From: an uncultured virus (IMG/VR IMGVR_UViG_3300006056_003323)
Taxonomy: Duplodnaviria > Heunggongvirae > Uroviricota > Caudoviricetes
DNA length: 64,000 bases
Direction: 5' to 3' (one strand)
Virus record (IMG/VR): IMGVR_UViG_3300006056_003323
The notes below the pieces were generated by a model. That model saw only the letters and a program-made list of their open reading frames with translations. It was not told where the DNA came from and did no database searches. Within the stretch, counting starts at the first letter, position 1; each line of letters starts with the position of its first letter. The translations under genes were made by a program, and so were the position numbers. This document shows, piece by piece, positions 5,721 to 62,304 of this stretch.

Positions 5721-5793
5721 TGACGCACTTTTGCTGAATTGCTATGGTTCACTCCGAGGCGACGCTTCGCCTCCGGTGAAAAGGAGCAAGATC

Positions 5794-36104: not shown

Positions 36105-36574
36105 ATGAGCGATGCATCGAAGCAGTTCAGCGAGCAAGCGTACCTCATCGTCCTCAAGGGAGGAGACGAGGAGAACCATGAAGACGTGCTGCTCTCTCTC
36201 GGGCCGTCTCTTCTTTCGTCGCATACAAAGCGCAGATGACAGGCATAGTTGTGATGGTTGTCGATCCAAGGAACACCTCCCGTACGTGTCCTGCGTGCGG
36301 GCATTGCGAGCGCGCGAACCGATGGAGCCAAGCAGGATTCAAGTGTAAGTCGTGTGGGTTCGAGCAGCATGCCGACGTGGTAGCCGCAAAGAACATCGCG
36401 CGCAGGGCCGCAGTCAATCGGCCTATCGTGTCGGGTGCTGACGCAGGGAATACCGAGACTCTTCATCGGGAACCTCTGCCGAGCCTAGACGCAAGCCTCG
36501 GGCTTTAGCCCGAGGTGGTTGACACCGCGGCGGATCTCTTCCGGCTCGCGAAGCTGCGCGCGGCGGAAGCCTGA
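36105..36574 (+). pseudogene. small gene apparently interrupted by the tnpB remnant
   Basis: MSDASKQF...LLSLGPSL left of the insert; TAADLFRLAKLRAAEA* right of it. Confidence 0.4.
36212..36523 (+). mobile_element. tnpB: IS200/IS605-family remnant: tnpB 3' end plus right end
   Basis: FVAYKAQMTGIVV..VDPRNTSRTCPACG...FKCKSCG...HADVVAAKNI; hairpin CCTCGGGCT-TT-AGCCCGAGG followed by TGGTTGAC. Confidence 0.88.
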
Positions 36575-36629
36575 GCAGGCTCCGCGAGTACCGACGAGAC
36601 CCCCAAGATCGAGCCCGGAGACCCGAACC

Positions 36630-37403
36630 GTGTACAAGCCGGAACCAAAAGACGAGAAGCGAGCAGTCGATGCGATCAGGAGACGTATCCTAGATCTGCC
36701 AAGAGAGCAGGTGTCGGCGTGGATGGAAGCACACGACAGCGACGGTCGATCTGGGTTTCCGCTCGAGATCGAGACGTGTCACCTCTGGACGCCAGAGCAT
36801 CTCGACAGCGTTCGCGTTGCCCTGATCGAGCGGGTGATGAGCTTCTCTGATCCTCTGGATGCGCAGGCCATGCTGTGGTGCTTGGGTCCGGTGATGAGGA
36901 TCGTCTCGAGTTCGGCGATCGCCGTTGCCATGGCGAGAAACGGTCGGCGGCGGGCTCAGCATACAGGGAACGTCGCAGCGTCCGCCGATGACATCGACGC
37001 CAATAGAATCGCCAAAAGAACGTTGGAGGAAAACGCAGACCTCGTCGAAATCGCAGCGACAGAGATCCAGAGATGTCTGCTGTCCGGCAGCGTCACGTCG
37101 CCGGAGATGAGGAGACGGATGTGCGAAGCTGACTTGGCTGGGTACTCATCGGCCGATCTTGCTCAGCAGTGTCTCTTTGAAGTAGACGACGTCATTGCGC
37201 CGAGCCCGTTTCGTCGAGTCATTCCATGGCTAACGCTGCATATCGACATGCTTTCCAAGTGGGCCAAATTCTCCTTGGACAAAAGCGAGCGGGTCGGCAA
37301 GTACGGGTGCGCGTCTGGCATCGCGAGAGCGAAGAGCGACCTCGCAGGATCCGTCGCAGACGGGCTCGAGGCATGTTTTGCCGTCTACGGGAATCGTCGA
37401 TGA
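36630..37403 (+). CDS. WTPExR-family protein
   Basis: LPREQVSAWME...LWTPEHLDSVRVAL; GGAG RBS. Confidence 0.75.
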   Translation: MYKPEPKDEKRAVDAIRRRILDLPREQVSAWMEAHDSDGRSGFPLEIETCHLWTPEHLDSVRVALIERVMSFSDPLDAQAMLWCLGPVMRIVSSSAIAVAMARNGRRRAQHTGNVAASADDIDANRIAKRTLEENADLVEIAATEIQRCLLSGSVTSPEMRRRMCEADLAGYSSADLAQQCLFEVDDVIAPSPFRRVIPWLTLHIDMLSKWAKFSLDKSERVGKYGCASGIARAKSDLAGSVADGLEACFAVYGNRR

Positions 37404-38122
37404 AGTTCATGCAGATCGTTGCAGACCGCATAAGCTGCATGCCGCCGGAGCAGCTTCGCGAGTGGAAAGAGATCCACGGGATGAAGGAGGCGGCGCCGGT
37501 GACATCCGTCGACCTGTCGCGCCTCGAGCAGTGGACGCCTGAGCATCGAGAGATCGTGATCGCGGCGCTTCAGGACGCCTGCTTCCGCTGGGAGAGCGAG
37601 CCGGACACGTACCCGGAAGCAGCCGACATCATGGAGGGGCTGTCTGCGGTCGACTTCCGCATCGCGAGAATCTGCTCGATTCAGTCTTGTCGATCGTTTT
37701 TGCCTTGGTTCCACGATGGCAACGGAGGCCGAGAAGCAGCACTCTGGGTGATCGAGAAATCCTCGAGGAAGATCGCAAACAGGACGTTCTCTGGATGCTC
37801 GAACATCGAGAGGCTTCAGACGTGGGTGAGCAACGACGACCCGCGCAAACACGCTCATCTCGCATCGATGCTTCTGTGGAACCTGTCGTCTCCCATCCAG
37901 GTCTCGAAGAGGCCAGCGAAGACGGATCTGGTCAAGACGCTCGTCGAGGACGGAGGGAATTGGTCAGACGTTCACATCGTGGAAAACCTATGCGATCCAG
38001 ACGCGAAGACGATCACCGACATGGCGTCCTTCTTCAGGAAGAAGCACGCGAGGACCATCGGCGAAGCCATCTCTCTGTGCTTCGATTTGATCGACAGCGA
38101 GAGACAAGGGAAGAAGCGATGA
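37400..38122 (+). CDS. WTPExR-family protein
   Basis: MPPEQLREWKE...QWTPEHREIVIAALQD. Confidence 0.78.
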   Translation: MKFMQIVADRISCMPPEQLREWKEIHGMKEAAPVTSVDLSRLEQWTPEHREIVIAALQDACFRWESEPDTYPEAADIMEGLSAVDFRIARICSIQSCRSFLPWFHDGNGGREAALWVIEKSSRKIANRTFSGCSNIERLQTWVSNDDPRKHAHLASMLLWNLSSPIQVSKRPAKTDLVKTLVEDGGNWSDVHIVENLCDPDAKTITDMASFFRKKHARTIGEAISLCFDLIDSERQGKKR

Positions 38123-38268
38123 AGACGCCGCCGACGAGGCCGATGACGCCGAGAGAGATCGAGCTGTTCGTTGAGATTCCTGCCGATCTCGATCGGCTGC
38201 GAGAGCGCGTGAGATCGACGCTGCGCGACTGCGTGAGCGCCAAGGAAGCTTTGGACAAGGCAAAATAG
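38119..38268 (+). CDS. small hypothetical protein
   Basis: ATGA overlap. Confidence 0.55.
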   Translation: MKTPPTRPMTPREIELFVEIPADLDRLRERVRSTLRDCVSAKEALDKAK

Positions 38269-38273
38269 TCGCC

Positions 38274-38612
38274 TTGATGCAGTGCCCAACGGCGATGATC
38301 GTGACAGGGCTGATCGTGATCGCCTGCGTGCTCTACGGGCCGAAGGCGAACTACGTCGCGTGGTTCTCCGTCTGCGCATGCGCCATATTCTTGATCTTCC
38401 GCTACGGCAGGGTCTTGCAGATGGAGAACCGTCTTGTGAGGCTGCTCGTCAAGATCGAAGACGAAGAGCAGCAGCACGTCGCACGGTGGAATCAGTTTCA
38501 CGAAGGGTCTCGAGACTACTTTGCGCAGTTCGGGATCAAGCTCGAGGACCTTCCGAATATCAGCGACGAATACCACAGGCGCGCCTCCGAAGACAATCTC
38601 AGCCAGAACTAG
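38274..38612 (+). CDS. 2-TM membrane protein
   Basis: Two hydrophobic segments. Confidence 0.65.
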   Translation: MMQCPTAMIVTGLIVIACVLYGPKANYVAWFSVCACAIFLIFRYGRVLQMENRLVRLLVKIEDEEQQHVARWNQFHEGSRDYFAQFGIKLEDLPNISDEYHRRASEDNLSQN

Positions 38613-38624
38613 AGGAGCAACAAG

Positions 38625-38987
38625 ATGGAAAGACAACACGGATATCGAGAAGCCTGTCAGCAGTGCGCTGAGAACAGGTCCCGGCGAGAGGAGGCCGAGA
38701 GGCAACTGGCAGAGATTGTGCAGAGCGAAGAGTTTGCATCCTACAAGCGATACGCCTCGTCGTTCGCGCATACGGACGCATGGGGGAGGATGAAGCCCGT
38801 GGCGAGCGCCTGGTTGATCTTTCTCTCGTTGGGGACGATCGCGTGCGCCTTCGGAGCTCACTCGGCATACGCCGAGTCAAAGTGGGGAAAGCTCTTGTTC
38901 TACGTGTTCGCCATACTCTGCAACGTCATCACCTTTGAACGCGCGATCGTGAAGGTGAAAGCCGAGAGAGCTCGGAAGGGCCTCTAG
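38625..38987 (+). CDS. 2-TM membrane protein
   Basis: GAGGAG RBS; two hydrophobic segments. Confidence 0.7.
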   Translation: MERQHGYREACQQCAENRSRREEAERQLAEIVQSEEFASYKRYASSFAHTDAWGRMKPVASAWLIFLSLGTIACAFGAHSAYAESKWGKLLFYVFAILCNVITFERAIVKVKAERARKGL

Positions 38988-39064
38988 GAAAACGACGCGC
39001 CAGCTTGACCGCCGATCATCCTGTCGTGTATCAGTTCATCAGAGAAAGAAGAAGGAGATCCGCG

Positions 39065-39742
39065 TTGGAAAAGAAGCAGGTCTATGTCATGCTGCCTCAG
39101 GGGCATCCGCTCCAGAAGCAGCTTGGCAACGATGGGGTCTCGCGGGGATCGGATCCATTCGCCTACAAGCCGGCTTATCGCGTCCAGGATCAGCACAGAG
39201 ATAACACTCATTTCTGCGCGTCGGTGAAAGAAGCTGTCAGGCATGCGGTCCAAGGATGGGCCAAGGTCAAGAGCGCAAGCCAGGTGAGCATCATGACCAG
39301 CGTGGAGATGGACCAACCGCTGATCGAGCAGCGGCGAGCTATCTTGACCAAGAAGCTCATGGCTGTCATGAACGAGGTTCTGCCGGACGCGATCGAGACA
39401 CAGCCGAGTCTCTGGGAACACGTGAACAAGATGATCAACGGAGACACGCTCGTTATCGGCAGCGTGATCCCCGACGACGTGGTGCAAGCGTTGATCGACC
39501 TCGAGATCGACGACGGGATCAGCAAGAAGGCCGGAGTCACGGGCTCGTCGTTCATGGTCGAAGGCATGCAGAGGATGCTCAAGAGCATCGAGGACGAAGC
39601 CTGCAGCTTCGGCGGCGACCCGGCGCAAGAGAGCGCGGCGAAGAGGCTCCTCGAGCGCGCGAGGCAGGCGATCGCGCAAGAGGAAAACAAGGGTTCGTTG
39701 GCTGCGTCCGTCTCCGACGGCAACGGGAAAGAGGAGAAGTAG
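39065..39742 (+). CDS. hypothetical protein
   Basis: AAGGAG RBS before TTG; TTGACC-18-TATCAG promoter-like sequence at 39005. Confidence 0.7.
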   Translation: MEKKQVYVMLPQGHPLQKQLGNDGVSRGSDPFAYKPAYRVQDQHRDNTHFCASVKEAVRHAVQGWAKVKSASQVSIMTSVEMDQPLIEQRRAILTKKLMAVMNEVLPDAIETQPSLWEHVNKMINGDTLVIGSVIPDDVVQALIDLEIDDGISKKAGVTGSSFMVEGMQRMLKSIEDEACSFGGDPAQESAAKRLLERARQAIAQEENKGSLAASVSDGNGKEEK

Positions 39743-39743
39743 C

Positions 39744-39941
39744 GTGGGCGACAACGAAGAGATGGTCGACGTTCTCGATGACGCGCAGCTCGTGCCGCTG
39801 ATGATCCAGGCGAAGATCATCGAGGAGAAGAGCAGCCGGAAGGATCGACGGGCTGCGCTCGCCAGGACGCGGTCGAAGCTCCGCTCCAGGGTTCTCTGGC
39901 CGATGAGCGAGCTCTTGGAGAAGCTCGGGATCAAGCGATAG
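39744..39941 (+). CDS. small hypothetical protein
   Basis: GAGGAG RBS. Confidence 0.6.
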   Translation: MGDNEEMVDVLDDAQLVPLMIQAKIIEEKSSRKDRRAALARTRSKLRSRVLWPMSELLEKLGIKR

Positions 39942-40035
39942 GACGAGCGTCCGTGCGGCGAGGAGAAAAGTACGCATCCCTGCTTAATTGAATTGACCCG
40001 ATTCACCAAGCAGGGCATCTTCTGGCTGCAAGACG

Positions 40036-40662
40036 ATGTTTTTTCTCGGAACGCACCACCCAGACTGGATCGAGAAGACGGACGTGCCCTTGTTCGTGTC
40101 TCGCCGATCGCTGCAGAAATACAAGCGGCTCCCGCGCCGAGTGGGCGGCGCGTGGGCGCTCGACTCTGGCGGGTTCACGGAGATCAGCATGCACGGCAAA
40201 TGGCTGACGACCGCGGAAGAGTACGCGAAGGATGTCCTTCGGTTCTCCGAGGAGGTCGGCGGCATGCTCTGGGCCGCGCCTCAAGACTGGATGTGCGAGC
40301 CGGAGATGCTGAAGAAGACCGGGCTGTCGGTCGAGGAGCATCAGCGCAGGACCGTACAGAGCGTGCTCGAGCTGAGGGCGCTCGGGGCCCCGGTGATCCC
40401 AGTTCTTCAGGGATGGACCATCGGTCAGTATTACGACTGCTGGGACATGTATGCCGACGCGGGAGTCGACCTCGCCAAAGAGAAGATCGTCGGGCTCGGC
40501 AGCGTGTGCCGTCGTCAGAACATGATGAGGGCAGGTCACCTCGTGATGTCGTTGGCCAACGATGGGCTGCGGCTCCACGGCTTCGGCTTCAAGCAAAGCA
40601 AATTCTACGTGCCCTGCTGCAACGTGGGCCAAGGGATGAGCGCCGGTGATGCTGGACTGTGA
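40036..40662 (+). CDS. dpdA: DpdA/TGT-like 7-deazaguanine DNA transglycosylase, N-terminal part (homology ends at 40596)
   Basis: FFLGTHHP.W, LFVS, WALDSGGF, WAAPQDWMCEP, PVLQGW, VGLGSVCRRQ, LHGFGFK. Confidence 0.85.
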   Translation: MFFLGTHHPDWIEKTDVPLFVSRRSLQKYKRLPRRVGGAWALDSGGFTEISMHGKWLTTAEEYAKDVLRFSEEVGGMLWAAPQDWMCEPEMLKKTGLSVEEHQRRTVQSVLELRALGAPVIPVLQGWTIGQYYDCWDMYADAGVDLAKEKIVGLGSVCRRQNMMRAGHLVMSLANDGLRLHGFGFKQSKFYVPCCNVGQGMSAGDAGL

Positions 40663-41029
40663 GTCTTGCGGGGCCTGCTGCATCTTCGGCGTTCCATACC
40701 GGCCAGCCTCAGACGCTTACCGCTATTACGTGGAGGTGACGGAGAGCGACCATGACCGACTGGAGGCCGCAGGCAAAGTGCGCCTCGTCGTTCTGAATGA
40801 AAATCCGCGTGAGCTCGCTCACGGTCACATGCGCATGACCAAACCAAACAGAGAGACGCCTAGTCGATGCGCGGCGTTGGAAGGAGAGATTGCTAAGAAG
40901 GTCACATGTTCGGCCTACAAGGATCGACCTGACGTGTGTCGGGATTTCGAGGTTGGTGGCCATGAGTGCCTGCGCGCTCGGCGGCTCGCGAGGCAGCTTG
41001 GGTTCAAGTTTTCACGGAGTAAAAAATGA
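40646..41029 (+). CDS. YkgJ-family Cys-cluster (CxxCxxCC) protein
   Basis: CESCGACC...CAALEG...CSAYKDRPDVCRDF. Confidence 0.88.
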   Translation: MMLDCESCGACCIFGVPYRPASDAYRYYVEVTESDHDRLEAAGKVRLVVLNENPRELAHGHMRMTKPNRETPSRCAALEGEIAKKVTCSAYKDRPDVCRDFEVGGHECLRARRLARQLGFKFSRSKK

Positions 41030-41289
41030 GTCTGGACAAGGAATTTGCAGCCATGGCTGCACAGGGGACGCTCGATCTCGGTGCCGACTACAGCCGTTCG
41101 GCGCGCAGAGACGACTCCAAAAAGCGATGGGTGCTTCAGCGTACGGTCCACCAGGTCTGTATGTTCTCCGTGCACTGCGTGGTGGAAGAGACGGAGCTGC
41201 CGTTCAACGACTCCTCGGACGAGATGGTGCTGCGCGAGCGCGTAGTGGCGTGGGTGTGGCGAGGCGTCAAGGGTCGGGAATGGGCCTGA
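41026..41289 (+). CDS. hypothetical protein
   Basis: ATGA overlap. Confidence 0.65.
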   Translation: MSLDKEFAAMAAQGTLDLGADYSRSARRDDSKKRWVLQRTVHQVCMFSVHCVVEETELPFNDSSDEMVLRERVVAWVWRGVKGREWA

Positions 41290-41528
41290 TGAGCGCCTGG
41301 GACTTCGTGCTCGTCATACAGTACCTCAATGGCGACGGGATCGGGGTCGGAGCTGACGTCGGTTGGACGCACTACGGCTACCTGGGTGTCGGGGGCGGCG
41401 GGCATGAAAATGGAGATGGGGACGGGGCGGGCCTCTACGTGGGCGCATTTACCGGGGGAGGGGAAAGTGGCGGCCAGCCGGCGGTCGTGGGCCCGTCGGG
41501 AATCCTCATGCGAAGGTCCGAGCCATGA
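41289..41528 (+). CDS. Gly-rich small protein 1
   Basis: MSAWDFVL...GDGDG...ILMRRS. Confidence 0.7.
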   Translation: MSAWDFVLVIQYLNGDGIGVGADVGWTHYGYLGVGGGGHENGDGDGAGLYVGAFTGGGESGGQPAVVGPSGILMRRSEP

Positions 41529-41584
41529 CAGAACTGCATACCGGCTGGGGTCCTGGCGAGATCATGAAAGTAGACGAGCAATGA
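41525..41584 (+). CDS. 19-aa coupled mini-ORF
   Basis: MTELHTGWGPGEIMKVDEQ, ATGA overlaps at both ends. Confidence 0.45.
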   Translation: MTELHTGWGPGEIMKVDEQ

Positions 41585-41802
41585 CCGAGCGGTGGAGCCT
41601 CGTGCTCAGCGAAGACGAAGCTACCAATTCTGGCTATGACTCCTACGTAGAGATCGACGGCGGCGGTCGCGGTGACGGCCACGGTGACTATGAGGGCGGC
41701 GGCTGGGGTGATGGCGACGGGGACGGCTACGGCAACGGCTACGACTACGGCGACGGCAACGGCTACGGAAGGGGCGAGGTTCTCCTGAGGACGTCCCAAT
41801 GA
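41581..41802 (+). CDS. Gly-rich small protein 2 (GDGYG repeats)
   Basis: MTERWSLVL...GDGDGYGNGYDYGDGNGYG...VLLRTS. Confidence 0.75.
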   Translation: MTERWSLVLSEDEATNSGYDSYVEIDGGGRGDGHGDYEGGGWGDGDGDGYGNGYDYGDGNGYGRGEVLLRTSQ

Positions 41803-42155
41803 CCAAAACCTGGGATCTCATACTCACCGGCACCGAAGGCCGGCTAGGATACGACGATGGAAACGGTCAAGGTGATGGTATCGCCAACGGCAAGGGAGAT
41901 GGGACCGGGGACGGCGGAGGTGATAGTACAGGCGACGGTTCTGGTTACGGTAGCTGCGGCTGGTCAACCGGGCTGAAGTCCTGCGGGCATCTGCTCGCGA
42001 GCTCTGACTCCCTTGCGTGGAGCCTGAACGCTCGGCTGAACGAGCCGCTGCCAGAGTGCGCCGGAAAGCACAAGAAGTGCACGAACTGCATGCGATACGC
42101 GCTGCAGTGGAGAGAGGGCCTTCTTGCGTCAACAGACAGGAGGAATGCAGCGTGA
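41799..42155 (+). CDS. dpdA: fusion: Gly-rich protein 3 N-terminus plus DpdA C-terminal part (from 41967)
   Basis: MTKTWDLIL...GDG repeats, then GL...LASSDSLAWS..AR...PLPEC..KHKKCTNC..YALQWR. Confidence 0.8.
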   Translation: MTKTWDLILTGTEGRLGYDDGNGQGDGIANGKGDGTGDGGGDSTGDGSGYGSCGWSTGLKSCGHLLASSDSLAWSLNARLNEPLPECAGKHKKCTNCMRYALQWREGLLASTDRRNAA

Positions 42156-42733
42156 CGGTCACGTCGAGAATTGGCAGGGAGATGAAGCGGTTCATCGAGC
42201 TGTCTGGATACTCCAAGTTCACGGTCAACAGGATCTGCAAGGAGTACGGCATCAACCACCGAACGGCGACGGACGAGCAGATTCGCGAGGCCACCGCCAA
42301 ATGGATGAGCCGGGAGCGCAAGACCCTCAGGAACGCGCGCCTGGTGACCGTGAACGGCGTCTCTTTGACGTTGAGCAAGTGGGCAAAGATCACGGGAATA
42401 AAGCTGAGCAGCCTCGACTACCGAGCTCGGTCCTGCGGAGATGCGGTCGTCGCGGTCACCGAGTCGCTCGCCGAGTCTGGACGATGGCGACAAGGTCGCG
42501 TCATCAGGAGCGACGACTCGCGAGTGAGGAAGTACGTCTTCATGGGACGAGAGATCTCGCGCGCCGAGCTCGCTGCTCTGTCTGGGTTCAAAAGAGACAC
42601 GATTACTGGCGCCGTCCGAAGGAAAGGCGAAGAGGCTGGGATTCGGCACGTCCTCGAGAGCAGCGGCAAGATGGAGCAGTTCCTGTTGAGAGCGAAGACC
42701 AAGGAGAAGAAGCATGCTGATCTCAGAGGCTGA
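42152..42733 (+). CDS. putative DNA-binding protein with repeated HTH-like modules
   Basis: VNGVSLTLSKWAKITGIK..LDYR and FMGREISRAELAALSGFK, modules like those at the end of phage HNH nucleases. Confidence 0.6.
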   Translation: MTVTSRIGREMKRFIELSGYSKFTVNRICKEYGINHRTATDEQIREATAKWMSRERKTLRNARLVTVNGVSLTLSKWAKITGIKLSSLDYRARSCGDAVVAVTESLAESGRWRQGRVIRSDDSRVRKYVFMGREISRAELAALSGFKRDTITGAVRRKGEEAGIRHVLESSGKMEQFLLRAKTKEKKHADLRG

Positions 42734-43943
42734 AGAGAGACTGCTGCAGCAGACGCGGCTCGTTCGCTCGATCGACGAGCAAGCGACGTCGCTTCGGCTC
42801 GACAAGATGAAGGAGTTGCTCGAGGCCGAGCCCCGGGCGCTCGAGGAGCTCGTCGGACGGCTGCAGCTCGAGTACGGAGTCAGGAAGCTCGGAGAGGAGA
42901 GCGGAGAGGTGGCGAAGGCTCTGAAGCGCCACCTCGACTACGGAGAGCCGATCGACGTGAACGCCCTTCAGGGCGAACTCGGAAACGTGCTGTTCTTCGT
43001 GACCTTCCTCGCTCGGTGCGCCGGAATCTCGCTCGAGAGCATCGTCGAGCGCCAGGTCAAAGAGACCGAAGAGAGGTTTCGCCAAGGATGGACCGTCGAG
43101 GCCGCCGCGGCTCGTGCGCGCGAGTCCGACGCGACCTCGAAGCCGGCGAGTCTTCAGCATCCGCACTGCAACGCGAGGAAGAACTCGTTTTTTTCCGGTT
43201 ACATGGGACTCGACGCATCCGATCGCGAGTGCGGAGAGCAGCAGTACATCATCGCGCATCGCCTGCGGCGCCTGCGGACGCTCAATGCCTGCGAATCATG
43301 CGCGAGGCTATGCGCGTTCGATGGGAAGTGGAGCGTCTCGGATCGTGAGATTTCGATCCCTCATTGGTGGCCAAGGATGTTCAGGAGACTCGACGAGACG
43401 CTTTCCGATCTCGGGAAGCTGAGCAGCAGCGAGAAGCGTAAACGAGAGGACGCTCTGTGGAATGAAGGATCGCTGATCGCGGACATCAAGATCGCGATCG
43501 TAGAAGGCCCAAGCCTCTCCGAGGCGTTGTGGAGAATCTCCAAGTACAGCCCAAGGACCTTCGTCAGGGTGATTCTTCCGACGATCACTCACCTCAAGAA
43601 CCAGCTGTTCAACCGCCCTGCAGACCGCGGCTTCGACACGCTCGAGAAGGACATGGGCGAGTGGGTCGAGAACCCTCACGTCGATCTGGCGGACGAGGTT
43701 AGCCGAGTCGCCAACTTGGCTTGGGACGAAAACTGGGACGGACACGGGAATTATGACATGACGTCGAACCTCGTGGCGTCGTTTCTCAGCGATGTCGCCG
43801 CCGTGATGCGTAGCGAGGCTCGCTGCGTCATCGCTGGGCCTGACTCGCCGCTGGATAGCCGGAAGATGTACCGAAACATCTTCGACGTCATCGAGTGCGA
43901 TGTCCGGTCCATCGCCATGAAGAACCTCGTTCATGATCCTTGA
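42714..43943 (+). CDS. MazG-like domain fused to Zn-finger and helical domains
   Basis: LGEESGEV...GELGNVLFF...GISLESI...EERF. Confidence 0.75.
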   Translation: MLISEAEERLLQQTRLVRSIDEQATSLRLDKMKELLEAEPRALEELVGRLQLEYGVRKLGEESGEVAKALKRHLDYGEPIDVNALQGELGNVLFFVTFLARCAGISLESIVERQVKETEERFRQGWTVEAAAARARESDATSKPASLQHPHCNARKNSFFSGYMGLDASDRECGEQQYIIAHRLRRLRTLNACESCARLCAFDGKWSVSDREISIPHWWPRMFRRLDETLSDLGKLSSSEKRKREDALWNEGSLIADIKIAIVEGPSLSEALWRISKYSPRTFVRVILPTITHLKNQLFNRPADRGFDTLEKDMGEWVENPHVDLADEVSRVANLAWDENWDGHGNYDMTSNLVASFLSDVAAVMRSEARCVIAGPDSPLDSRKMYRNIFDVIECDVRSIAMKNLVHDP

Positions 43944-43991
43944 TGCGGCGGCGATCTGCCGTGGTTACAACGACTGAAGAAGGAGCAACGC

Positions 43992-44162
43992 ATGCACAGC
44001 AAGAAGAACGAAGAGACGAAGAAGACGACCAAGCTCGGACAGGCTGGCACCGACGGAGGTCTTCTCGCGGAGACACGAGTCGATGCAGGCAAGCGAGACC
44101 CGGCCGATACGCGACGAGATGGCCTCTCGGGGTCGCCTCGACAGACGATCGAGTCACGATGA
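43992..44162 (+). CDS. small hypothetical protein
   Basis: AAGGAG RBS; ATGA overlap with dprA. Confidence 0.45.
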   Translation: MHSKKNEETKKTTKLGQAGTDGGLLAETRVDAGKRDPADTRRDGLSGSPRQTIESR

Positions 44163-44908
44163 GCGACGGCGCCTTCGAGACGTGGCTGATCGCAACGAAG
44201 CAGCGCTGTGAGAGCGCCGGCATTCGGATGATCTCGAAGGACGACCCGGAGTTTCCAAGCGGTCTCTTGTCGCTACCGACGTGCCCATCCTTCGTGTACG
44301 TGAAGGGCTCACTTCCGAAGCAGAAGAGCGTCGCGTGCATCGGGACCCGATCTCCGACTCAGTTCGGAGCCATCGCCGCGAAGGGCATCGCCTCGGCCCT
44401 CTCCGAGGGAGGGTGGAGCATCGTCAGCGGTCTTGCGATCGGGATCGACTCGATCTGCCACCGCGCCGCGCTGGCCACTCGAGGACACACGACCGCGGTG
44501 CTCGCGCACGGCTTGGATCTCGCCGTTTACCCGCGAGAGAACGCTGGTCTCGCGAAGGAGATCCTCGACGCCGGCGGAGCGCTGCTCAGCGAGTATCCGC
44601 CTGGGACCCGTGCGGAGAAGTGGTCCTTCGTCGCGAGAGATCGGCTGCAGGCAGGGCTCTCCCTGGCGACGTTCTGCATGCAGACGGGGGTCAAGGGCGG
44701 ATCCATGCATGCCGTGAACGCCTCCGTCGGGCTGAAAAGGCCCGTCTACGTCCCAGAGGTGCCTGAGCGCTACAGGCTCGAGGAGAAGAGCGCCGGCATT
44801 CTCGAGCTCATGAGGAGAGGCGTCGCCAAGACCATCGAAGGGAAGGCGAGCTATCCGACGCTGCTCTCCGAGATCTCCTTGCTTTATGCAGGCGAAGTAT
44901 CGAGTTGA
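44159..44908 (+). CDS. dprA: DprA/Smf-family protein (core domain only)
   Basis: IGTR, IVSGLAIGIDSICHRAAL, TAVLAHGLD, LLSEYPPG, FVARDRLQAGLS, GGSMH. Confidence 0.92.
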   Translation: MSDGAFETWLIATKQRCESAGIRMISKDDPEFPSGLLSLPTCPSFVYVKGSLPKQKSVACIGTRSPTQFGAIAAKGIASALSEGGWSIVSGLAIGIDSICHRAALATRGHTTAVLAHGLDLAVYPRENAGLAKEILDAGGALLSEYPPGTRAEKWSFVARDRLQAGLSLATFCMQTGVKGGSMHAVNASVGLKRPVYVPEVPERYRLEEKSAGILELMRRGVAKTIEGKASYPTLLSEISLLYAGEVSS

Positions 44909-45251: not shown

Positions 45252-45944
45252 GTGAAGCCAGAGGTCATCACGCAAGCCATCGCCAAGCTGCCGGTCGAGC
45301 AGCAGCGCGAGTGGAGGGAGATCCACAGGACGCCTGGCACATCTCCGCTGTCGCTCGAGTGGCGCACCATGCCGATGTGGACGCCCGAGCAGAGAGAAGC
45401 CGTGGAGATCGCGCTGCACGACTGGGCGCTCGAGCAGACGGACGCTTCCGATCTCGTGCTCAAGATCGGACTGCCTCGAGTCCGTCGCGTGGGGGTGTGG
45501 CTGGCATGCGTGGTCGTTCGCACCGTATTGTGCCACGTGCCTGACCAAGAACGCGGGCCTCGCGTCGCTGTCGAAGCCGCAGAACGATGGGTGAGGGGTC
45601 TCGCTACGGTAAAAGAAGCAAGGTCCGCGGCGAGCGGCGCCTATGAGTACGGGGTCTACGGAAAGTCTTCACTGAACGAGCCGCGCTCAGCGGGAAAACC
45701 GGCAGCATTTGCAGCAGCCAGAGTCGCTGACGCTGCTGGATATGCGAACTCAGCCAGCGATGCTGTATTCGAATCTGTCGACAATGCATCCGATCAAGCT
45801 GCTTACCGCGCCTGCGCGTGCGGAGCCTCTCCAAACTCTTTTTATGCGCTGAAAAACAGCGCGCTGCGAGACTTTTGCCAGACGATCTCCGTCGTGATGC
45901 GAGAGGCTCTGAGCGCTGCTGCAGAAGGGTACGCGCGATACTAG
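45252..45944 (+). CDS. WTPExR-family protein with Imm-5-like C-terminal half
   Basis: LPVEQQREWRE...MWTPEQREAVEIAL; GPRVAVEAAERWVRG...EARSAA. Confidence 0.78.
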   Translation: MKPEVITQAIAKLPVEQQREWREIHRTPGTSPLSLEWRTMPMWTPEQREAVEIALHDWALEQTDASDLVLKIGLPRVRRVGVWLACVVVRTVLCHVPDQERGPRVAVEAAERWVRGLATVKEARSAASGAYEYGVYGKSSLNEPRSAGKPAAFAAARVADAAGYANSASDAVFESVDNASDQAAYRACACGASPNSFYALKNSALRDFCQTISVVMREALSAAAEGYARY

Positions 45945-52906: not shown

Positions 52907-55900
52907 ATGTCAATGCAGGTCAGCGAAGACAAGCGTCCGCGGAGTCGATCGAAGAGCAGGGCGCATCTGCAGATCGTCGAGAAGAGCGGGGAGATCGTGA
53001 TCGACGCCTTCGCCGGCGGAGGAGGGGCGAGCACGGGGTTCAGGATGGCGATCGGTCGCGAGGTCGACGTCGCGATCAACCACAACCCAGTCGCGATCGC
53101 GATGCACGAGAAGAATCACCCGTCCTCGAAGCACTACATCGAGGACGTGTTTCACGTCGACCCGTTCGAAGCCTGCCAGGGAAGACGCCCGAAGGCGATG
53201 TGGATGTCGCCTGATTGTTTCCCCGCAGGCACCTTGATCTTCACGAAGAAAGGACACGTGCCGATCGAAGAGATCAAGAAGGGTGACGAAGTCCTCACTC
53301 ATCTCGGGCGATGGCGAGCGGTGACAGACGTCATGCTGTCAAAGAAAGAGCTCCTTCAGGTCCGCGGTCAGGGGCACCCTGGCCTGCTTGTAAGTGGAGA
53401 GCATCCGTTCTACGTGAGGGAGAGACGCCCCGCGGGAAAGCCTGTTTCTCTTGATGACCCGAAGTGGATCAGCGCCAAGAACATGGGGAAGAACATGAGT
53501 TGGGCAACGCCTATCTCCATCCCTCGAACAGAAGTTCCAAAAGTACCGTTCGTTCAAGGACGACGCCTCGACGTGACAAAAGACCTGCTATGGCTGGCTG
53601 GAAGATACGTCGCAGACGGCTGGACTCGCATTGGATGTGGGCGAGCCGAGCTCGTCATCACATGCGGTCATCACAAGACCAATCTTCTTCGAGATCGTCT
53701 CTCGTCTTGGCTTCCGAAAAGCATTGAGTACAAGTCAGGAAGCAACGAACTCTCGTGGATGGAGAGGGACACTGCAACGGCTCACCAGTTTTCTACAAAC
53801 AGCAGAGGATTGGTCGAGTGGCTTCGTTCAAACTTTGGTCATAGATCAGAATGCAAGGTTGTCCCGACTTGGTTGTTTGGACTTGGTAAAGAAGAGCGAG
53901 AAGCCTTTCTTGATGGGTATCTGTCTGGAGACGGGTACATCAACGAGTCAGCCGTCTCGAAGACCGTCGAAAGCTCTACGGTGTCAAAGGGCTTGGCCAT
54001 CGGCATCAAAATGATCGCTGCATCTCTCGGGTTCTTCCCAAGATTGTACCGATCTAAAAACAGCAGTGTTATCCAAGGCAGGAAGGTGAACTCCAAGGTG
54101 ATCTGGAAAGTCAGGTGGCGCACCGAAGGCGTATCAAGGGCTGGGACAGAGATAGACACGCTTCACTCGTGGTCTCCGGTCAAAGAGGTGACTTCGACTG
54201 GCATTGTCTCCGACGTTTTCAACATTAGCGTCGAAGAAGACGAGAGCTACGTTGCAGACGGCATCGTTGTGCACAATTGCAAGCACTTCTCCAGGGCAAA
54301 AGGAGGGAAGCCTCGAGACAAGAAGATCCGCGCGCTCGCGTGGCTCGCGATTCGATGGGCGAGGACGGTGAAGCCGGAGATCATCTTCCTCGAGAACGTT
54401 CCAGAGTTCAAAACGTGGGGGCCCGTCGACAATGACGGGAACCCGATCAAGGAGAAGGCCGGCAAGACCTTCCGCCTCTGGATGAACACGTTGAAGTCGC
54501 TCGGTTACGTGATCGAGCACCGAGAGCTCGTCGCGGCCGACTACGGAGCGCCGACCTCGAGGAAGCGCTTCTACTTGATCGCCAGGTGCGACGGAAAGCC
54601 GATCGTCTGGCCGGATCCCACGCACGGAAAGGGTCGAGGGAGGCCGTGGAGATCGGCAGCGGAGTGCATCGATTGGAGCGTGCCGTGCAAGAGCATCTTC
54701 GATCGGAAGAAGCCGCTCGCACCGGCGACGATGGCTCGCATCGCAGCGGGGCTGCATCGGTTCGTGATCGAGACGAACACGCCGTTCGTCGTTCCTCTCA
54801 CGCACCACGGGAACGACTCGAGGGTCTACTCCCTCGAGAACCCGTTTCCGACCGTGACTGGAGCGAACCGCGGCGAGATGGCGTTTGTCTCCCCCGTCCT
54901 CGTCAACAACATGAACAACAACGTCCCTCGGCCGCTCGATGAGCCTCTCGCGACGATCCTCACTGGAGGGCACAAGATCCTCGCGACGGCGGAGCTTCAG
55001 CCCAAGGACACGAAGGCCGCGTTCGTTGCGTCTCACTACGGCGAGAGCGTTGGGCGTCCGGCGTCCGACCCGGCCCCCACGGTGACCGCCGGCGGGCAGG
55101 GACACTCTGCGATCATCGAAGCCACGCTCACGCCTTCAGAGTCGAGCGTGACGAGCGCTCCGTTCCTCGCGACGGTCACCCACACCAAGAGCGGTGATCG
55201 CATCCACTCTGCGAGCGAGCCGCTCAACACCGTGACCACCGCGAAGGGCGGAGAGTTTGTGCTGGTCACGCCAACGCTCATCCAGTCGGGTTACGGAGAG
55301 CGAAAGGAAGCCGACGGGAAGAAGAGCCAAGAGCCTCGTTGCCTCGACATCGAGGAGCCGCTGGGGACGGTTGTGGCAGGAGGCGCCAAGCACGCCGTCG
55401 TCCTCTCGTACATCTCCAAGGCTTTTGGAGGTGGAGAAGAGAAGATGTCGCCGGGATCATCCGTGGAAGATCCAGTCGGCTCCGTCACGACGAAAGACCA
55501 CAACCACCTCGTCCAAGTCAGCGCCATCACGAAGTTTTATGGAACTTGCACCGGCGAGAGCGTCGAAGAGCCTCTGCCGACGGTGACGGCTGGCGGATGG
55601 CACCTCGGCGTCGTCTCCTGCTCGGTCGAAGCGAAAGATGGCGCCGAGCTCGCCCACATCACGAAGTTCCGAAAGGACAGCGTCGGATCTTCCATGGACG
55701 ATCCCATGCCAACGGTCACCGCCAACAGCTTCATCAAGCGCCCTGGAGGCGCCGTGCCCATCGGCGTCGTCACCACAAAGGTCGAGCCGACCGCTGAGCC
55801 GAAGAGGAAGGGGAAGAAGCGCACGACGACTCCCGATCGACGAGAGCAGGTCCAGAAGTTCCTTCAATCGCACGATCGGAGCGCGAAGAAGCCGACCGCG

Positions 55901-56185
55901 AAGGGAAAGTCGGCGGCGAAGGAGAGCAGGCCGCTCGGCACGGTGATGATCAACGGCGTCGAGCATCACATCGTGGACATCGGCATGCGGATGCTGCAGC
56001 CGCACGAGCTGTTCCTCGCTCAGGGGTTCCCGCGGGACTACGCGCTCGACGTCGAGATCGAGAAGGTCAGCAAGGGCAAAAGCAAACGCAAGAAGTTGAC
56101 AAAGACGCAGCTGATCGCCCTTTGCGGGAACGCGGTCTGCCCTCCTGTCGCCGAGGCCATCGTAAAAGCGAACTACTTTCTCTGA
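52907..56185 (+). CDS. dcm: DNA (cytosine-5) methyltransferase containing an intein
   Basis: DAFAGGGG (motif I), SPD/CKHFS (IV), LENV (VI), YGAPTSRKR (VIII), RMLQPHEL..AQGFP (IX), GNAVCPP (X). Confidence 0.95.
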   Translation: MSMQVSEDKRPRSRSKSRAHLQIVEKSGEIVIDAFAGGGGASTGFRMAIGREVDVAINHNPVAIAMHEKNHPSSKHYIEDVFHVDPFEACQGRRPKAMWMSPDCFPAGTLIFTKKGHVPIEEIKKGDEVLTHLGRWRAVTDVMLSKKELLQVRGQGHPGLLVSGEHPFYVRERRPAGKPVSLDDPKWISAKNMGKNMSWATPISIPRTEVPKVPFVQGRRLDVTKDLLWLAGRYVADGWTRIGCGRAELVITCGHHKTNLLRDRLSSWLPKSIEYKSGSNELSWMERDTATAHQFSTNSRGLVEWLRSNFGHRSECKVVPTWLFGLGKEEREAFLDGYLSGDGYINESAVSKTVESSTVSKGLAIGIKMIAASLGFFPRLYRSKNSSVIQGRKVNSKVIWKVRWRTEGVSRAGTEIDTLHSWSPVKEVTSTGIVSDVFNISVEEDESYVADGIVVHNCKHFSRAKGGKPRDKKIRALAWLAIRWARTVKPEIIFLENVPEFKTWGPVDNDGNPIKEKAGKTFRLWMNTLKSLGYVIEHRELVAADYGAPTSRKRFYLIARCDGKPIVWPDPTHGKGRGRPWRSAAECIDWSVPCKSIFDRKKPLAPATMARIAAGLHRFVIETNTPFVVPLTHHGNDSRVYSLENPFPTVTGANRGEMAFVSPVLVNNMNNNVPRPLDEPLATILTGGHKILATAELQPKDTKAAFVASHYGESVGRPASDPAPTVTAGGQGHSAIIEATLTPSESSVTSAPFLATVTHTKSGDRIHSASEPLNTVTTAKGGEFVLVTPTLIQSGYGERKEADGKKSQEPRCLDIEEPLGTVVAGGAKHAVVLSYISKAFGGGEEKMSPGSSVEDPVGSVTTKDHNHLVQVSAITKFYGTCTGESVEEPLPTVTAGGWHLGVVSCSVEAKDGAELAHITKFRKDSVGSSMDDPMPTVTANSFIKRPGGAVPIGVVTTKVEPTAEPKRKGKKRTTTPDRREQVQKFLQSHDRSAKKPTAKGKSAAKESRPLGTVMINGVEHHIVDIGMRMLQPHELFLAQGFPRDYALDVEIEKVSKGKSKRKKLTKTQLIALCGNAVCPPVAEAIVKANYFL
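53216..54277 (+). mobile_element. intein with LAGLIDADG homing endonuclease (354 aa)
   Basis: Starts CFPAGTLI; SGEHPF block B; WLAGRYVADG and FLDGYLSGDG; ends YVADGIVVHN|C; visibly more AT-rich. Confidence 0.95.
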
Positions 56186-60403: not shown

Positions 60404-60425
60404 CCACGTGGTGTACCATCAGCCC

Positions 60426-60839
60426 ATGCGGCTTGATCAGGTGCTGAAAGGGTGGAAGCGAGCGCTCGTATCGCTTCCTTCAGGGCTTGTCGTCGAATGC
60501 GAAATCGCAGCGACGGAAGAGGACAGGGAGCGGGGGTTCAACGGCCGACGTCGACCTCCCTACGGCTCTGGCATGCTCTTCGTCTTCCCTCAGCCGGTGC
60601 TGAGTCCGTTCACGATGCAGCGCACGGAGTTTCCCCTCGACATGGTCTTCATGCAAGGAGAGCTGAACGGAGAAGGCGCGGTGCCTGAGGACATCACGCA
60701 GGTCGTCAACGCGATCGCTCTCGACCCCGAACTCGTCTGGCCATCGATGCTCTACAACCTCTGCCTCGAGACCACGAGCCGCTCGCCCATCCTCTCGAGC
60801 TCGAGAAGCACGTACGCGCTCATCTCGGAGAAGCGTTGA
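60426..60839 (+). CDS. DUF192-family protein
   Basis: EIAATEEDRERG..GR...GMLFVFP...FTMQRTEFPLDMVF. Confidence 0.85.
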   Translation: MRLDQVLKGWKRALVSLPSGLVVECEIAATEEDRERGFNGRRRPPYGSGMLFVFPQPVLSPFTMQRTEFPLDMVFMQGELNGEGAVPEDITQVVNAIALDPELVWPSMLYNLCLETTSRSPILSSSRSTYALISEKR

Positions 60840-61875: not shown

Positions 61876-62251
61876 ACTTGGTCTTCGAGCGCCTGGAAGG
61901 CGTCAAGAGCAAGACGAGCAGCTCAGAGCCGAGCTGCTCGCTGAGCGTCCCGTCCGCGGCTCTTTGAGCAAGCGCTACTGCAGCAGCCCGAGCATCGCCC
62001 TTGAGAGACGAAAGATCGATGCCGAGGCGTCGAGCGTTGAGGCTGACCGCTTCGATCTCACCAAGGGTCATGCCTGGAATTGCGTCGACGATCTTCGGCC
62101 AGAAATCGCGACTCAGCGGACCGCACTCGCCGCGCTCGACCTCGCCCAGATAGGTGTGTGACAAGCCAAGGATCTTCGCGAGCTCACGAAGGCTGAGCTT
62201 TGCCTCGACCCTCTTGCGTCGCAGATATTCGCCGAACAGCTCCAAGTGCAT
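61847..62251 (-). CDS. XRE-family HTH transcriptional regulator
   Basis: FGEYLRRKRVEAKLSLRELAKILGLSHTYLGEVERG. Confidence 0.88.
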   Translation of the reverse strand: MHLELFGEYLRRKRVEAKLSLRELAKILGLSHTYLGEVERGECGPLSRDFWPKIVDAIPGMTLGEIEAVSLNARRLGIDLSSLKGDARAAAVALAQRAADGTLSEQLGSELLVLLLTPSRRSKTKSTDRSDRSS

Positions 62252-62304
62252 CGACGATGTGTACGGCAAAGCCTACGCACAGTCGAGCGGATGCGCGGTC
62301 TCTC

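What the first reader, a model, noticed from the sequence alone, without database searches (positions are those of the whole stretch)
40036..42155. DpdA/TGT-like DNA-modification gene split by a 1.37-kb cassette, with both halves still in open frames
Seen: TGT-fold homology stops at LHGFGFKQ (40596) and resumes at TGLKSCGHLLASSDSLAWS...CTNC..YALQWR (41967). Deleting 40597-41966 gives a continuous 249-aa protein (AAG CAA|ACC GGG). The insert has no transposase, integrase, RT, terminal repeats or intein motifs, and only CAA/AA microhomology at the junctions. It begins with the 3' tail of another gene (QILRALLQRGPRDERR*, coupled to ykgJ) and ends inside a Gly-rich gene that supplies a start codon in frame with the DpdA C-terminal part. 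Established: TGT-family enzymes use two Asp residues, and DpdA inserts 7-deazaguanines into DNA. Inference: one Asp (DSGGF) is in the N part while the second (SSDS) and the Cys cluster are in the C part, so activity would need a two-chain enzyme or precise excision/splicing. Otherwise modification is switched off.
Basis: partly seen in the sequence, partly recalled or inferred. Interest (0 to 1): 0.85.

Follow-up and report, generated by a model that had tools for sequence, protein, structure and literature searches.

The report
Phage dpdA gene broken by insertion
A wastewater phage's gene for a DNA-modifying enzyme (DpdA) has very recently been cut in two by 1.37 kb of DNA copied from another phage-like source, while near-identical phages in other samples still carry the whole gene, so this is most likely an ordinary fresh gene disruption and not a designed two-part enzyme.

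Summary
DpdA (PF23859) homology stops at K186 (window 40593) and resumes at S187 (41964), with no residue lost or duplicated. The insert is 1370 nt (40593-41962, or shifted by one G). It has no target duplication, terminal repeats, mobility gene, intron or intein signal.

The uninterrupted allele exists. P0003 (249 aa) equals the two window halves exactly and occurs on 7 contigs. Contigs of three other studies join 40592 to 41963, with 1-2 mismatches in about 5 kb of flank. Only 1 of 20 runs holding part of the region, the probable source, holds the insert.

The right end cuts a Gly/Asp-rich gene whose 84-aa relatives stand alone elsewhere. The insert is therefore a random fragment placed by illegitimate recombination, not a discrete element.

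The intact frames reflect recency, and the in-frame fusion is a one-in-three chance. The break lies in a near-invariant loop (HGFGFK|S) that I infer is in the active site, so loss of function is most likely. A two-chain enzyme is not excluded.

One twist: the inserted YkgJ-like gene shares a domain superfamily with DpdM, but is not its orthologue.

The parts
40036..40662 (+). dpdA 5' fragment ORF (208 aa). DpdA residues 1-186 are 40036-40593. A 22-aa tail read from the insert follows (40594-40659), with the stop at 40660-40662.
   Evidence: Pfam PF23859 E 2.8e-62, profile 5-199/291. PHROG 1279 E 4.4e-67. Residues 1-186 are identical to P0003. It is listed as P0124 on 1 contig of 116,238 nt.
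40593..41962 (+). The 1370-nt insert (equally 40594-41963, because one G fits both sides). Its length is 2 mod 3. No target-site loss or duplication.
   Evidence: One contig in each of runs X2, X4 and X5 joins 40592 to 41963, skipping 1370 nt with 'both' = 1. The X1 contig runs through both junctions with 0 mismatches. No terminal direct or inverted repeats. No Rfam family. No second copy in the window.
40649..41029 (+). YkgJ-like CxxCxxCC (putative Zn/Fe-binding) gene, 126 aa from ATG 40649 (GTG 40646 is also possible).
   Evidence: Pfam PF03692 E 8e-9. Relatives are P0127 at 98% and P0128 at 87%, both 132 aa. No PHROG hit. Not similar to VH7D DpdM beyond the SCGxCC motif.
41026..41289 (+). 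orf87, unknown function. Its start overlaps the ykgJ stop (ATGA).
   Evidence: ORF list and sequence. No Pfam or PHROG hit. No usable Atlas hit.
41289..41528 (+). gly1, 79-aa Gly-rich acidic small protein (TGATG overlap with orf87).
   Evidence: Sequence. Aligns with gly2, gly3 and P0125. pI 4.2, 29% Gly.
41525..41584 (+). 19-codon mini-ORF (MTELHTGW...) between gly1 and gly2, with ATGA overlaps on both sides. Possibly a remnant of another family member.
   Evidence: Read directly from the sequence. Not tested further.
41581..41802 (+). gly2, 73-aa Gly/Asp/Tyr-rich acidic small protein with the family's C-terminal GEV..R tail.
   Evidence: pI 4.05, 29% Gly, 22% D+E. The only family hit is a sub-threshold Pfam TrAA12 match.
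41799..42155 (+). Fusion ORF (118 aa). The first 55 codons of gly3 (41799-41963) are joined in frame to DpdA residues 187-249 (41964-42152), with the stop at 42153-42155.
   Evidence: Pfam PF23859 E 7.4e-17 on residues 55-113. The C part is identical to P0003 residues 187-249. gly3 relatives P0002, P0125 and P0126 are stand-alone 84-aa proteins that diverge after ...CGW and carry a C-terminal tail the window copy lacks. The fusion protein is unique: 1 member on 1 contig.
42182..42733 (+). Gene downstream of dpdA (flank, not part of the insert). Possible DNA-binding protein.
   Evidence: Weak PHROG 3377 'HNH endonuclease' match, E 3.5e-5, over residues 95-143 only. No Pfam family. It is present in the flank of the uninterrupted allele too.

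Best explanation
This is a very recent insertion allele of a phage dpdA gene. The ancestral state is an uninterrupted 249-aa DpdA, which is still the common form of this phage in wastewater and activated-sludge samples. In one lineage, seen in one sample, a 1370-nt fragment of foreign and probably phage DNA was placed between codons 186 and 187. The fragment carries a YkgJ-like gene, orf87 and a tandem family of Gly/Asp-rich small genes.

Both ends of the fragment are arbitrary. The right end cuts a Gly-rich gene short, and the junctions share at most one base with the target. I therefore infer illegitimate, microhomology-independent recombination, either end-joining capture at a break or two template switches, and not a mobile element.

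The result is two ORFs: DpdA 1-186 with a 22-aa foreign tail, and a 55-aa Gly-rich head fused by chance in frame to DpdA 187-249. The chain is broken inside the near-invariant HGFGFK|S loop next to the base-binding pocket, and floppy extensions are added to both new ends. I infer that 7-deazaguanine insertion into DNA is lost or badly impaired in this variant. The variant survives because dpdA is dispensable for growth.

Shown: the insertion, its exact limits, the existence and spread of the intact allele, and the truncation of gly3. Inferred: the recombination mechanism, the phage origin of the fragment, and the loss of activity.
For: 1. The intact allele exists. P0003 (249 aa) is on 7 contigs, the longest 226,016 nt, from JGI, Logan and ENA. 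Window residues 1-186 and 187-249 are identical to it.

2. Contigs of X2, X4 and X5 (three studies) join 40592 to 41963, skipping 1370 nt. X2 and X5 differ from the window at 2 positions and X4 at 1 within the roughly 5 kb of flank where all three are laid; X4 has a second difference further on, at 44407.

3. Of 20 runs from 19 studies that hold part of window 39000-43500, only X1, the possible source, holds all words. The next best hold 0.69, which is the flank-only share of 3131/4501.

4. The split proteins are unique. P0001 has 1 member on 1 contig, and P0124 is on 1 contig.

5. The best 120 of 6450 DpdA relatives are all 240-330 aa, so none of those listed is split.

6. gly3 is truncated. 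Its relatives are 84 aa, diverge after ...CGW, and carry the family's C-terminal GEV..RR.S tail.

7. There is no transposase, integrase, RT or Hint domain, no Rfam intron, no terminal repeats, and only 1 nt shared at the junction.

8. The break follows invariant H181, F183, G184 and K186, between strand 180-182 and helix 187-196 of a confident model (pLDDT 94.2) whose fold matches TGT and DpdA 7ui4. In Salmonella DpdA the base-stacking Leu236 lies 20 residues before the nucleophile Asp256 (passages of PMC10164549). Here F183 lies 18 residues before invariant D201.

9. A dpdA deletion mutant of phage CAjan was obtained and its DNA analysed: it lacked the modification and was fully cut by the restriction enzymes tested (passages of PMC6884629).
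Against: Both halves keep usable translation signals. The fusion ORF starts at an ATGA overlap with a GAGGA motif upstream. No + strand terminator-like site lies between the halves. Both pieces are therefore probably made, and TIM barrels can sometimes reassemble from fragments (recalled, no call).

The variant assembled at depth ~21 with no intact-allele contig in X1, so it was not a rare dead end in that sample.

Loss of activity is inferred, not measured.

The donor's gene order and breakpoints were never seen. Its contigs are not in the collections I could fetch from. The phage origin rests only on weak Atlas neighbours (recognition 1272) and on similar composition (insert GC 0.615 against window 0.609).
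Confidence: 0.75

Rival explanations
1. Genes-in-pieces enzyme. The N fragment and the Gly-head::C fragment reassemble into an active two-chain DpdA, as the mobE-split NrdA of phage Aeh1 does, so modification continues in this variant.
For: Both ORFs are intact, co-oriented and translationally coupled, with no + strand terminator between them. The break lies between secondary-structure elements (strand 180-182 and helix 187-196), not inside one. Split phage enzymes that keep function are documented: nrdA/mobE in Aeh1 and gene 43 in phage 25 (passages of PMC2988022). Earlier unchecked notes of this scan describe conserved split DpdA forms in other phages. The variant was the assembled form in its sample at depth ~21.
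Against: There is no conservation. The split form is on 1 contig and in 1 of 20 runs, and has zero amino-acid change from the intact allele, so nothing shows selection for it. The in-frame fusion is a 1-in-3 chance. The break is next to invariant residues that I infer are in the active site, and it adds 22-aa and 55-aa unrelated extensions there. dpdA is dispensable in CAjan, so survival needs no activity.
Confidence: 0.12
2. The insert is a discrete mobile or switchable element, either non-autonomous or of a new kind, that can excise precisely. On this reading the intact and interrupted forms are two states of an on/off switch for DNA modification.
For: The insertion removed no target base, and a precise deletion restores the exact wild-type sequence. 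The genome hosts other selfish-element traces: an intein with a LAGLIDADG domain in a C5 methylase and a TnpB C-terminal fragment.
Against: The right end lies inside a gene whose relatives continue for 29 more codons, so it is not a natural element end. There is no recombinase, terminal repeats or hairpins, and no second copy in the window. No joint contig was seen in the insert-bearing run X1 (contigs miss rare forms). With only 1 nt of junction homology there is no obvious substrate for precise excision.
Confidence: 0.05
3. Assembly artefact. The insert was joined to dpdA by a chimeric assembly of two co-occurring genomes.
For: Only one sample shows it, and I saw contigs, not raw reads.
Against: Two separate records show the identical structure: Logan's 75,288-nt contig of X1, and the 116,238-nt contig given as the longest contig for the window's own proteins P0001 and P0124. 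I did not establish that different assemblers made them. A chimera would need two false joins, and no repeat longer than 1 nt at the junctions could mislead a k-mer assembler. The frames and gene overlaps across the insert are coherent. No separate donor contig covering the insert was laid from X1.
Confidence: 0.03

Closest known systems
Phage DpdA 7-deazaguanine DNA transglycosylases (Pfam PF23859, PHROG 1279). The nearest named relatives are the 'queuine tRNA-ribosyltransferase' genes of Mycobacterium phages such as Chris and Nibb. The solved reference is Salmonella DpdA, PDB 7ui4.
   Same: Strong profile matches. About 52-53% identity to the mycobacteriophage proteins over the N part. The intact allele has a TGT/DpdA fold. 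The Asp residues are invariant, consistent with D95, D130 and D256 of Salmonella DpdA.
   Different: In the window the gene is cut after residue 186 by 1370 nt of unrelated DNA. No preQ0 synthesis genes were found in the 64 kb. No activity is known for this subfamily member.
'Genes-in-pieces' splits of phage genes by free-standing homing endonucleases: Aeh1 nrdA/mobE, T4 gene 60/mobA, phage 25 gene 43 (passages of PMC2988022).
   Same: A conserved enzyme gene is cut at a functionally critical region into two ORFs by inserted DNA.
   Different: Here the insert has no endonuclease, its ends are arbitrary (one gene is truncated), and the arrangement is confined to one sample alongside a common intact allele. 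Function of the halves is unshown.
Illegitimate-recombination mosaic joints in phage genomes. The classical model of phage mosaicism is recalled here; I saw PMC2327257 only in a search listing and its abstract.
   Same: A foreign fragment is joined with essentially no sequence homology, and the junctions ignore gene boundaries.
   Different: Joints that survive are usually at gene borders. This one is caught inside a gene, presumably because the gene is dispensable and the event is young.
DpdM, the preQ1 methyltransferase of Cellulophaga phage phiSM and Vibrio phage VH7D (PMC10516641: section 13 and one supplement row read).
   Same: The inserted YkgJ-like protein carries the CxxCxxCC domain (PF03692 E 8e-9). 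VH7D DpdM matches the same domain weakly (E 0.016). The paper calls E. coli YkgJ a DpdM homologue.
   Different: 126 aa against 304 aa. BLASTP finds only the 6-residue SCGxCC motif (E 0.068). tblastn against 50,697 phage records finds no DpdM-bearing phage. No queF was found in the window.

Membership tests
DpdA (PF23859) | Sequence match to the family profile above the curated cut-off | tested here: met
   The N ORF scores 210.8 bits and the C fusion 61.7 bits against a cut-off of 27. Together they cover profile positions 5-254 of 291 with no gap or overlap.
DpdA (PF23859) | One continuous TIM-barrel polypeptide | tested here: not met
   The window encodes two ORFs separated by 1370 nt. The allele P0003 is continuous, and its model has pLDDT 94.2.
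DpdA (PF23859) | TGT-like fold | tested here: met
   Tested on the intact allele only. Foldseek finds TGTs and DpdA 7ui4 at E about 1e-5 to 2e-5, probability 1.00, TMq 0.55-0.60.
DpdA (PF23859) | Three invariant active-site Asp residues (Salmonella D95, D130, D256) | tested here: met
   D43, D84 and D201 are invariant in 37 sequences. Their equivalence to D95, D130 and D256 is inferred from order and spacing, not from a residue-level superposition. D43 and D84 lie on the N piece and D201 on the C piece.
DpdA (PF23859) | Inserts a 7-deazaguanine base into DNA | not testable with these tools
   Needs LC-MS/MS of DNA.
Genes-in-pieces (endonuclease-split functional phage genes) | The insert encodes a homing endonuclease | tested here: not met
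   No HNH, GIY-YIG or LAGLIDADG hit in any insert ORF.
Genes-in-pieces (endonuclease-split functional phage genes) | The split arrangement is the fixed form of the lineage | tested here: not met
   The split form is on 1 contig and in 1 of 20 runs. The intact form is on 7 contigs and in 3 of 3 other runs laid.
Genes-in-pieces (endonuclease-split functional phage genes) | The two polypeptides assemble into an active enzyme | not testable with these tools
No bench data.
Intein, or group I/II intron | An in-frame Hint domain, or a self-splicing RNA fold | tested here: not met
   The insert length is 2 mod 3 and holds several stops. No Hint domain in the insert. Rfam found nothing in the insert at E up to 1.
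Transposable element / IS | Transposase, terminal repeats, target-site duplication, multiple copies | tested here: not met
   None of the four was found. In addition, the right end truncates a gene.
DpdM (preQ1 methyltransferase) | Full-length similarity to validated DpdM (VH7D YP_009006155, 304 aa) | tested here: not met
   BLASTP aligns only 6 residues, E 0.068. The shared superfamily domain PF03692 scores E 8e-9 for the window protein and 0.016 for DpdM.
DpdM (preQ1 methyltransferase) | Co-occurrence with a preQ1 pathway (QueF and preQ0 genes) | tested here: inconclusive
   No Que or FolE family among the 93 window ORFs scanned. However, the window is 64 kb of a genome of at least 226 kb.

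The most novel reading that the evidence does not exclude
The insertion is not a knock-out but a module swap. On this reading the two DpdA pieces still assemble into an active two-chain transglycosylase. The newly acquired YkgJ-like protein, which belongs to the same CxxCxxCC superfamily as the preQ1 methyltransferase DpdM, would then change the chemistry of the inserted base. Alternatively, the acidic Gly/Asp-rich small proteins might act as anti-defence factors. Either way, one illegitimate event would have re-tooled the phage's anti-restriction strategy.
Probability: 0.07. Interest if true: 0.75.

Novelty: new member of a known kind. Interest (0 to 1): 0.3.

Why it matters
This is mainly a cautionary result. 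A gene split with both halves open looked like a designed two-chain enzyme, but population data show a fresh insertion allele next to a common intact allele.

Its modest positive value has three parts:
- It captures a raw product of illegitimate recombination inside a phage gene, with base-exact junctions, before selection has tidied it up.
- It offers a natural near-isogenic pair (dpdA intact and dpdA interrupted, with 1-2 differences in about 5 kb of flank) for asking what 7-deazaguanine modification is worth to a phage in wastewater communities.
- If the two pieces did complement, it would give a ready-made split point for DpdA engineering.

Tried and rejected
- **Own genome.** None is held for this window.
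- **Phage records.** Megablast of 10 kb against the phage collection gave no match.
- **Collection scans.** IMG/VR, JGI metagenome and GTDB genome scans found only distant DpdA relatives. The best identities were 58%, 60% and 53%. None found a relative of the ykgJ-like or gly3 genes. I therefore could not fetch the DNA of the intact allele or of the donor. The empty site rests on laid contigs and on protein P0003.
- **PDB sequence searches.** Searches with P0003 and with a 37-sequence profile found nothing meaningful. The fold search was needed instead.
- **Complex prediction.** It was not available, so nothing was folded and the question of whether the halves bind stays open. Alignments A2 and A3, made for that job, were not used. 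A3 mis-aligns the Gly-rich head to the DpdA N part.
- **Intron, intein or IS.** Considered and rejected.
- **DpdM orthology of the ykgJ-like gene.** Considered and rejected, superfamily level only.
The 'QILRALLQRGPRDERR*' reading is too short to search. It is not supported by the MSIDSPM start of the ykgJ relatives.
- **Protein Atlas.** For the Gly-rich protein it gave only unnamed viral clusters at low recognition, which is a lead only. It gave nothing for orf87.
- **Supplements.** I saw only snippets of the supplement of PMC10516641. Its DpdM alignment (Alignment S2) might refine the comparison.
Full report
**What is in the sequence**

The region 40036-42155 lies in a + strand gene train of a large, mostly unannotatable phage-like genome. 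GC is about 0.61. The window's own proteins sit on a 116,238-nt contig, and the sister allele on contigs up to 226,016 nt.

- ORF 40036-40662 (208 aa) matches Pfam DpdA (PF23859) at E 2.8e-62, over residues 2-187 and profile positions 5-199 of 291.
- The last ~60 residues of ORF 41799-42155 (118 aa) match positions 198-254 of the same profile at E 7.4e-17.
- PHROG 1279 ('queuine tRNA-ribosyltransferase') gives the same complementary coverage.

In the 8 of 17 IMG/VR relatives (identity up to 58%) where the short C part could be detected, it follows the N part on the same strand with no intervening genes. The two abut exactly in L001 (6564/6565) and L007 (3268/3269), lie within about 10 nt in five others, and overlap by about 10 nt in L008. 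The other 9 loci gave no C-part hit at E 0.01; one of them (L013) is cut at the gene.

**Content of the insert**

- After K186 the N ORF reads 22 foreign codons and stops at 40660-40662.
- A YkgJ-like CxxCxxCC gene follows (40649-41029; PF03692 E 8e-9).
- Next is orf87 (41026-41289), with no family hit.
- Next come gly1 (41289-41528), a 19-codon mini-ORF (41525-41584) and gly2 (41581-41802).
- Last is gly3 (from 41799), whose first 55 codons run in frame into DpdA residues 187-249.
- All the genes are joined by ATGA or TGATG overlaps.
- gly1-3 are paralogues: acidic, about 29% Gly, with a shared N-terminal M-x-x-W-x-L-x-L motif. Full-length members also share a C-terminal GEV..RR.S tail.
- No insert ORF matches a transposase, integrase, reverse transcriptase, endonuclease or Hint domain.
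- Rfam finds nothing in the insert at E up to 1.
- There are no terminal direct or inverted repeats, and the window holds no second copy.

**The decisive result: an uninterrupted allele**

A search with the N ORF returned 6450 DpdA relatives. The 120 listed are all 240-330 aa. The best is P0003: 249 aa, 99% identical, on 7 contigs from three sources. Window residues 1-186 and 187-249 are letter-for-letter identical to P0003. By contrast, the window's two ORFs are singletons: P0124 is on 1 contig, and P0001 has 1 member on 1 contig.

Among public runs, 20 rows from 19 studies hold part of window 39000-43500. They are mostly wastewater and activated sludge, from 2016 to 2025. Only X1, flagged as the possible source, holds all sampled words. 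The next best hold 0.69, which is exactly the flank-only share of 3131/4501.

I laid X1, X2, X4 and X5 on window 38000-44500.
- In X2, X4 and X5, one contig each joins 40592 directly to 41963. The skip is 1370 nt, the skipped stretch has ends GC..TG, and 1 nt fits both sides.
- Only 4 variable positions appear across the whole stretch. X2 and X5 share one of them (42219 T>C).
- In X1, a 75,288-nt contig at depth 20.8 runs through both junctions with no mismatch and shows no joint.

The insert is therefore 40593-41962 (or 40594-41963). The intact junction is AAG|TCA ACC GGG (K-S-T-G).

**What kind of event it was**

Every relative has a continuous gene, and the flanks of the two alleles are nearly identical. 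The intact form is therefore ancestral and the insertion is very young.

The right end lies inside gly3. Its relatives P0002, P0125 and P0126 are stand-alone 84-aa proteins on contigs up to 27,982 nt. They are about 88-95% identical over the first 55 residues, then continue VWGSEV...GYGEVRRAS where the window switches to DpdA.

The left end lies 43 nt before the ATG AGC (40636) that matches the start of the ykgJ relatives P0127 (98%) and P0128 (87%), both 132 aa and beginning MSIDSPM. In the window this stretch is 5 nt shorter than 6 codons would need. I infer this from the proteins, since I did not see the donor DNA. As a result, the ykgJ frame opens only at the internal Met (40649) or GTG (40646).

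The arbitrary ends, the 1-nt junction overlap, and the absence of target loss or duplication point to illegitimate recombination of a random fragment. It could be end-joining capture at a break or a double template switch. This is an inference.

The donor was not retrievable. Weak Atlas neighbours of the Gly-rich protein are all viral, and the insert's GC (0.615) matches the window (0.609). A co-occurring phage is the likeliest donor.

A chimeric assembly is unlikely. It would need two false joins without any shared k-mer, and the contig that Logan assembled from X1 shows the same structure as the window. The junctions still need checking against raw reads.

**Does the enzyme still work?**

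An alignment of 37 family members gives these invariant residues: D43 (LDSGGF), D84 (PQDWM), Q125-G126, G153/G155, H181-x-F183-G184-x-K186, S199-x-D201, and C225/N227/C228.

The AlphaFold model of the intact allele is confident (pLDDT 94.2). It places the break between strand 180-182 and helix 187-196. Its fold matches TGTs and the DNA preQ0 insertase DpdA, 7ui4.

In Salmonella DpdA, D95 is the general acid/base and D256 the nucleophile. Alanine substitution of either abolishes guanine exchange. D130 and H181 read the base, and F99 and L236 stack on it (passages of PMC10164549). By order and spacing, D43, D84 and D201 correspond to D95, D130 and D256, and the HGFGF loop corresponds to the L236 region. 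This mapping is an inference, with no residue-level superposition available.

The break also sits at the catalytic face, and it adds a 22-aa tail and a 55-aa Gly-rich head there.

Both pieces are probably expressed. The gene overlaps are coupled, a GAGGA motif lies before the fusion start, and no + strand terminator-like site lies in 39700-42900. Split phage enzymes can work; the review PMC2988022 describes Aeh1 NrdA/mobE and phage 25 gp43 (passages). But nothing here shows selection for the split. There is no sequence change, it occurs in one sample, and the in-frame fusion is a 1-in-3 chance.

A dpdA deletion mutant of phage CAjan was obtained, and its DNA was unmodified and fully cut by the restriction enzymes tested (passages of PMC6884629). 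The variant's abundance in X1 therefore does not require activity.

I put loss or severe impairment of function at roughly 0.8 given that the insertion is real, and a working two-chain enzyme at about 0.1.

**A lead worth recording**

The only validated enzyme that further modifies DNA-borne preQ1 by methylation is DpdM. Its authors describe it as a DUF3109 protein with E. coli YkgJ as a homologue (PMC10516641, section 13).

I fetched VH7D DpdM (304 aa; accession from the supplement). It matches PF03692 only weakly (E 0.016, below the cut-off). It shares just the SCGxCC motif with the 126-aa window protein. tblastn of the window protein against 50,697 phage records hits only two records of one Acinetobacter phage, annotated 'ferredoxin'. 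The relation is therefore at superfamily level, not orthology.

No preQ0 or preQ1 synthesis gene was found among the 93 window ORFs scanned, but the window is under a third of the genome. The coincidence of a YkgJ-type gene landing inside dpdA is noted but unexplained.

**Comparison and novelty**

- As a gene family, this is a DpdA. The nearest named relatives are mycobacteriophage 'queuine tRNA-ribosyltransferases' at about 52-53% identity.
- As an event, it is a mosaic joint made by illegitimate recombination and caught inside a dispensable gene.
- It resembles 'genes-in-pieces' only in outline. It fails two tested criteria of that class: there is no endonuclease, and the split is not the fixed form of the lineage.
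- Earlier notes of this scan report conserved split DpdA forms with trans-encoded barrel pieces in other phages. They are unchecked. They concern a different split point and conserved arrangements, and they only slightly raise the prior that DpdA tolerates splitting.

My searches found no paper on a dpdA interrupted in this way: DpdA, 7-deazaguanine, phage; 39 papers, 15 listed; the term 'split' in PMC10516641. This is not an exhaustive claim.

**Verdict**

This is a real feature, correctly observed and over-interpreted. It is a recent, single-sample insertional disruption of a phage dpdA gene, and of modest interest.

Noticed in passing
window 52907-56185 (+): A 1092-aa ORF combines C-5 cytosine DNA methylase domains (PF00145, E 1.1e-23) with Hint, intein-splicing and LAGLIDADG domains. 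It looks like an intein with a homing endonuclease inside a phage DNA methyltransferase.
   Followed up: no
window 36182-36508 (+): A stop-to-stop frame of 108 aa matches only the C-terminal TNB/zinc-ribbon domain of TnpB/Cas12f-like proteins (PF07282, E 1e-21). No RuvC part was found in the frames upstream. It appears to be a second foreign gene fragment in this genome, 4 kb from dpdA.
   Followed up: partly
window 36519-37403, 37226-38122 and 45252-45944 (+): Three ORFs flanking the dpdA block share an N-terminal motif (…P.EQ…W.E.H…WTPE…), seen by eye in the translations. This may be a private paralogue family with no Pfam match.
   Followed up: no
window 42714-44908 (+): dpdA is followed by a 409-aa protein with a MazG pyrophosphohydrolase domain (E 1.1e-6) and a DprA-like protein (PF02481, E 3.9e-52). 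These are possible partners in nucleotide or DNA handling. They are present in the flank of the intact allele too.
   Followed up: no
window 40636-40651: The ATG AGC that matches the start of the 132-aa ykgJ relatives (MSIDSPM...) is in the DpdA frame here. It lies 13 nt, not 18 nt, before the internal Met codon, so the window's ykgJ copy seems to have lost its original start. This is inferred from the proteins; the donor DNA was not seen.
   Followed up: partly
window 5731-6801 (+), 60408-60839 (+), 61850-62269 (-): These ORFs match ADP-ribosylglycohydrolase (E 7e-17), DUF192 (E 1.4e-13) and an XRE-type HTH regulator (E 3e-9). They are among the very few of 93 scanned ORFs with any Pfam family.
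   Followed up: no
run X4 (coded 'organism A'), laid on window 38000-44500: The intact-allele phage is present at contig depth 53.5 in a run labelled with an organism name rather than as a metagenome, with a longest record of 220,751 nt. This may be a culture or enrichment that holds the host. I did not pursue it.
   Followed up: no
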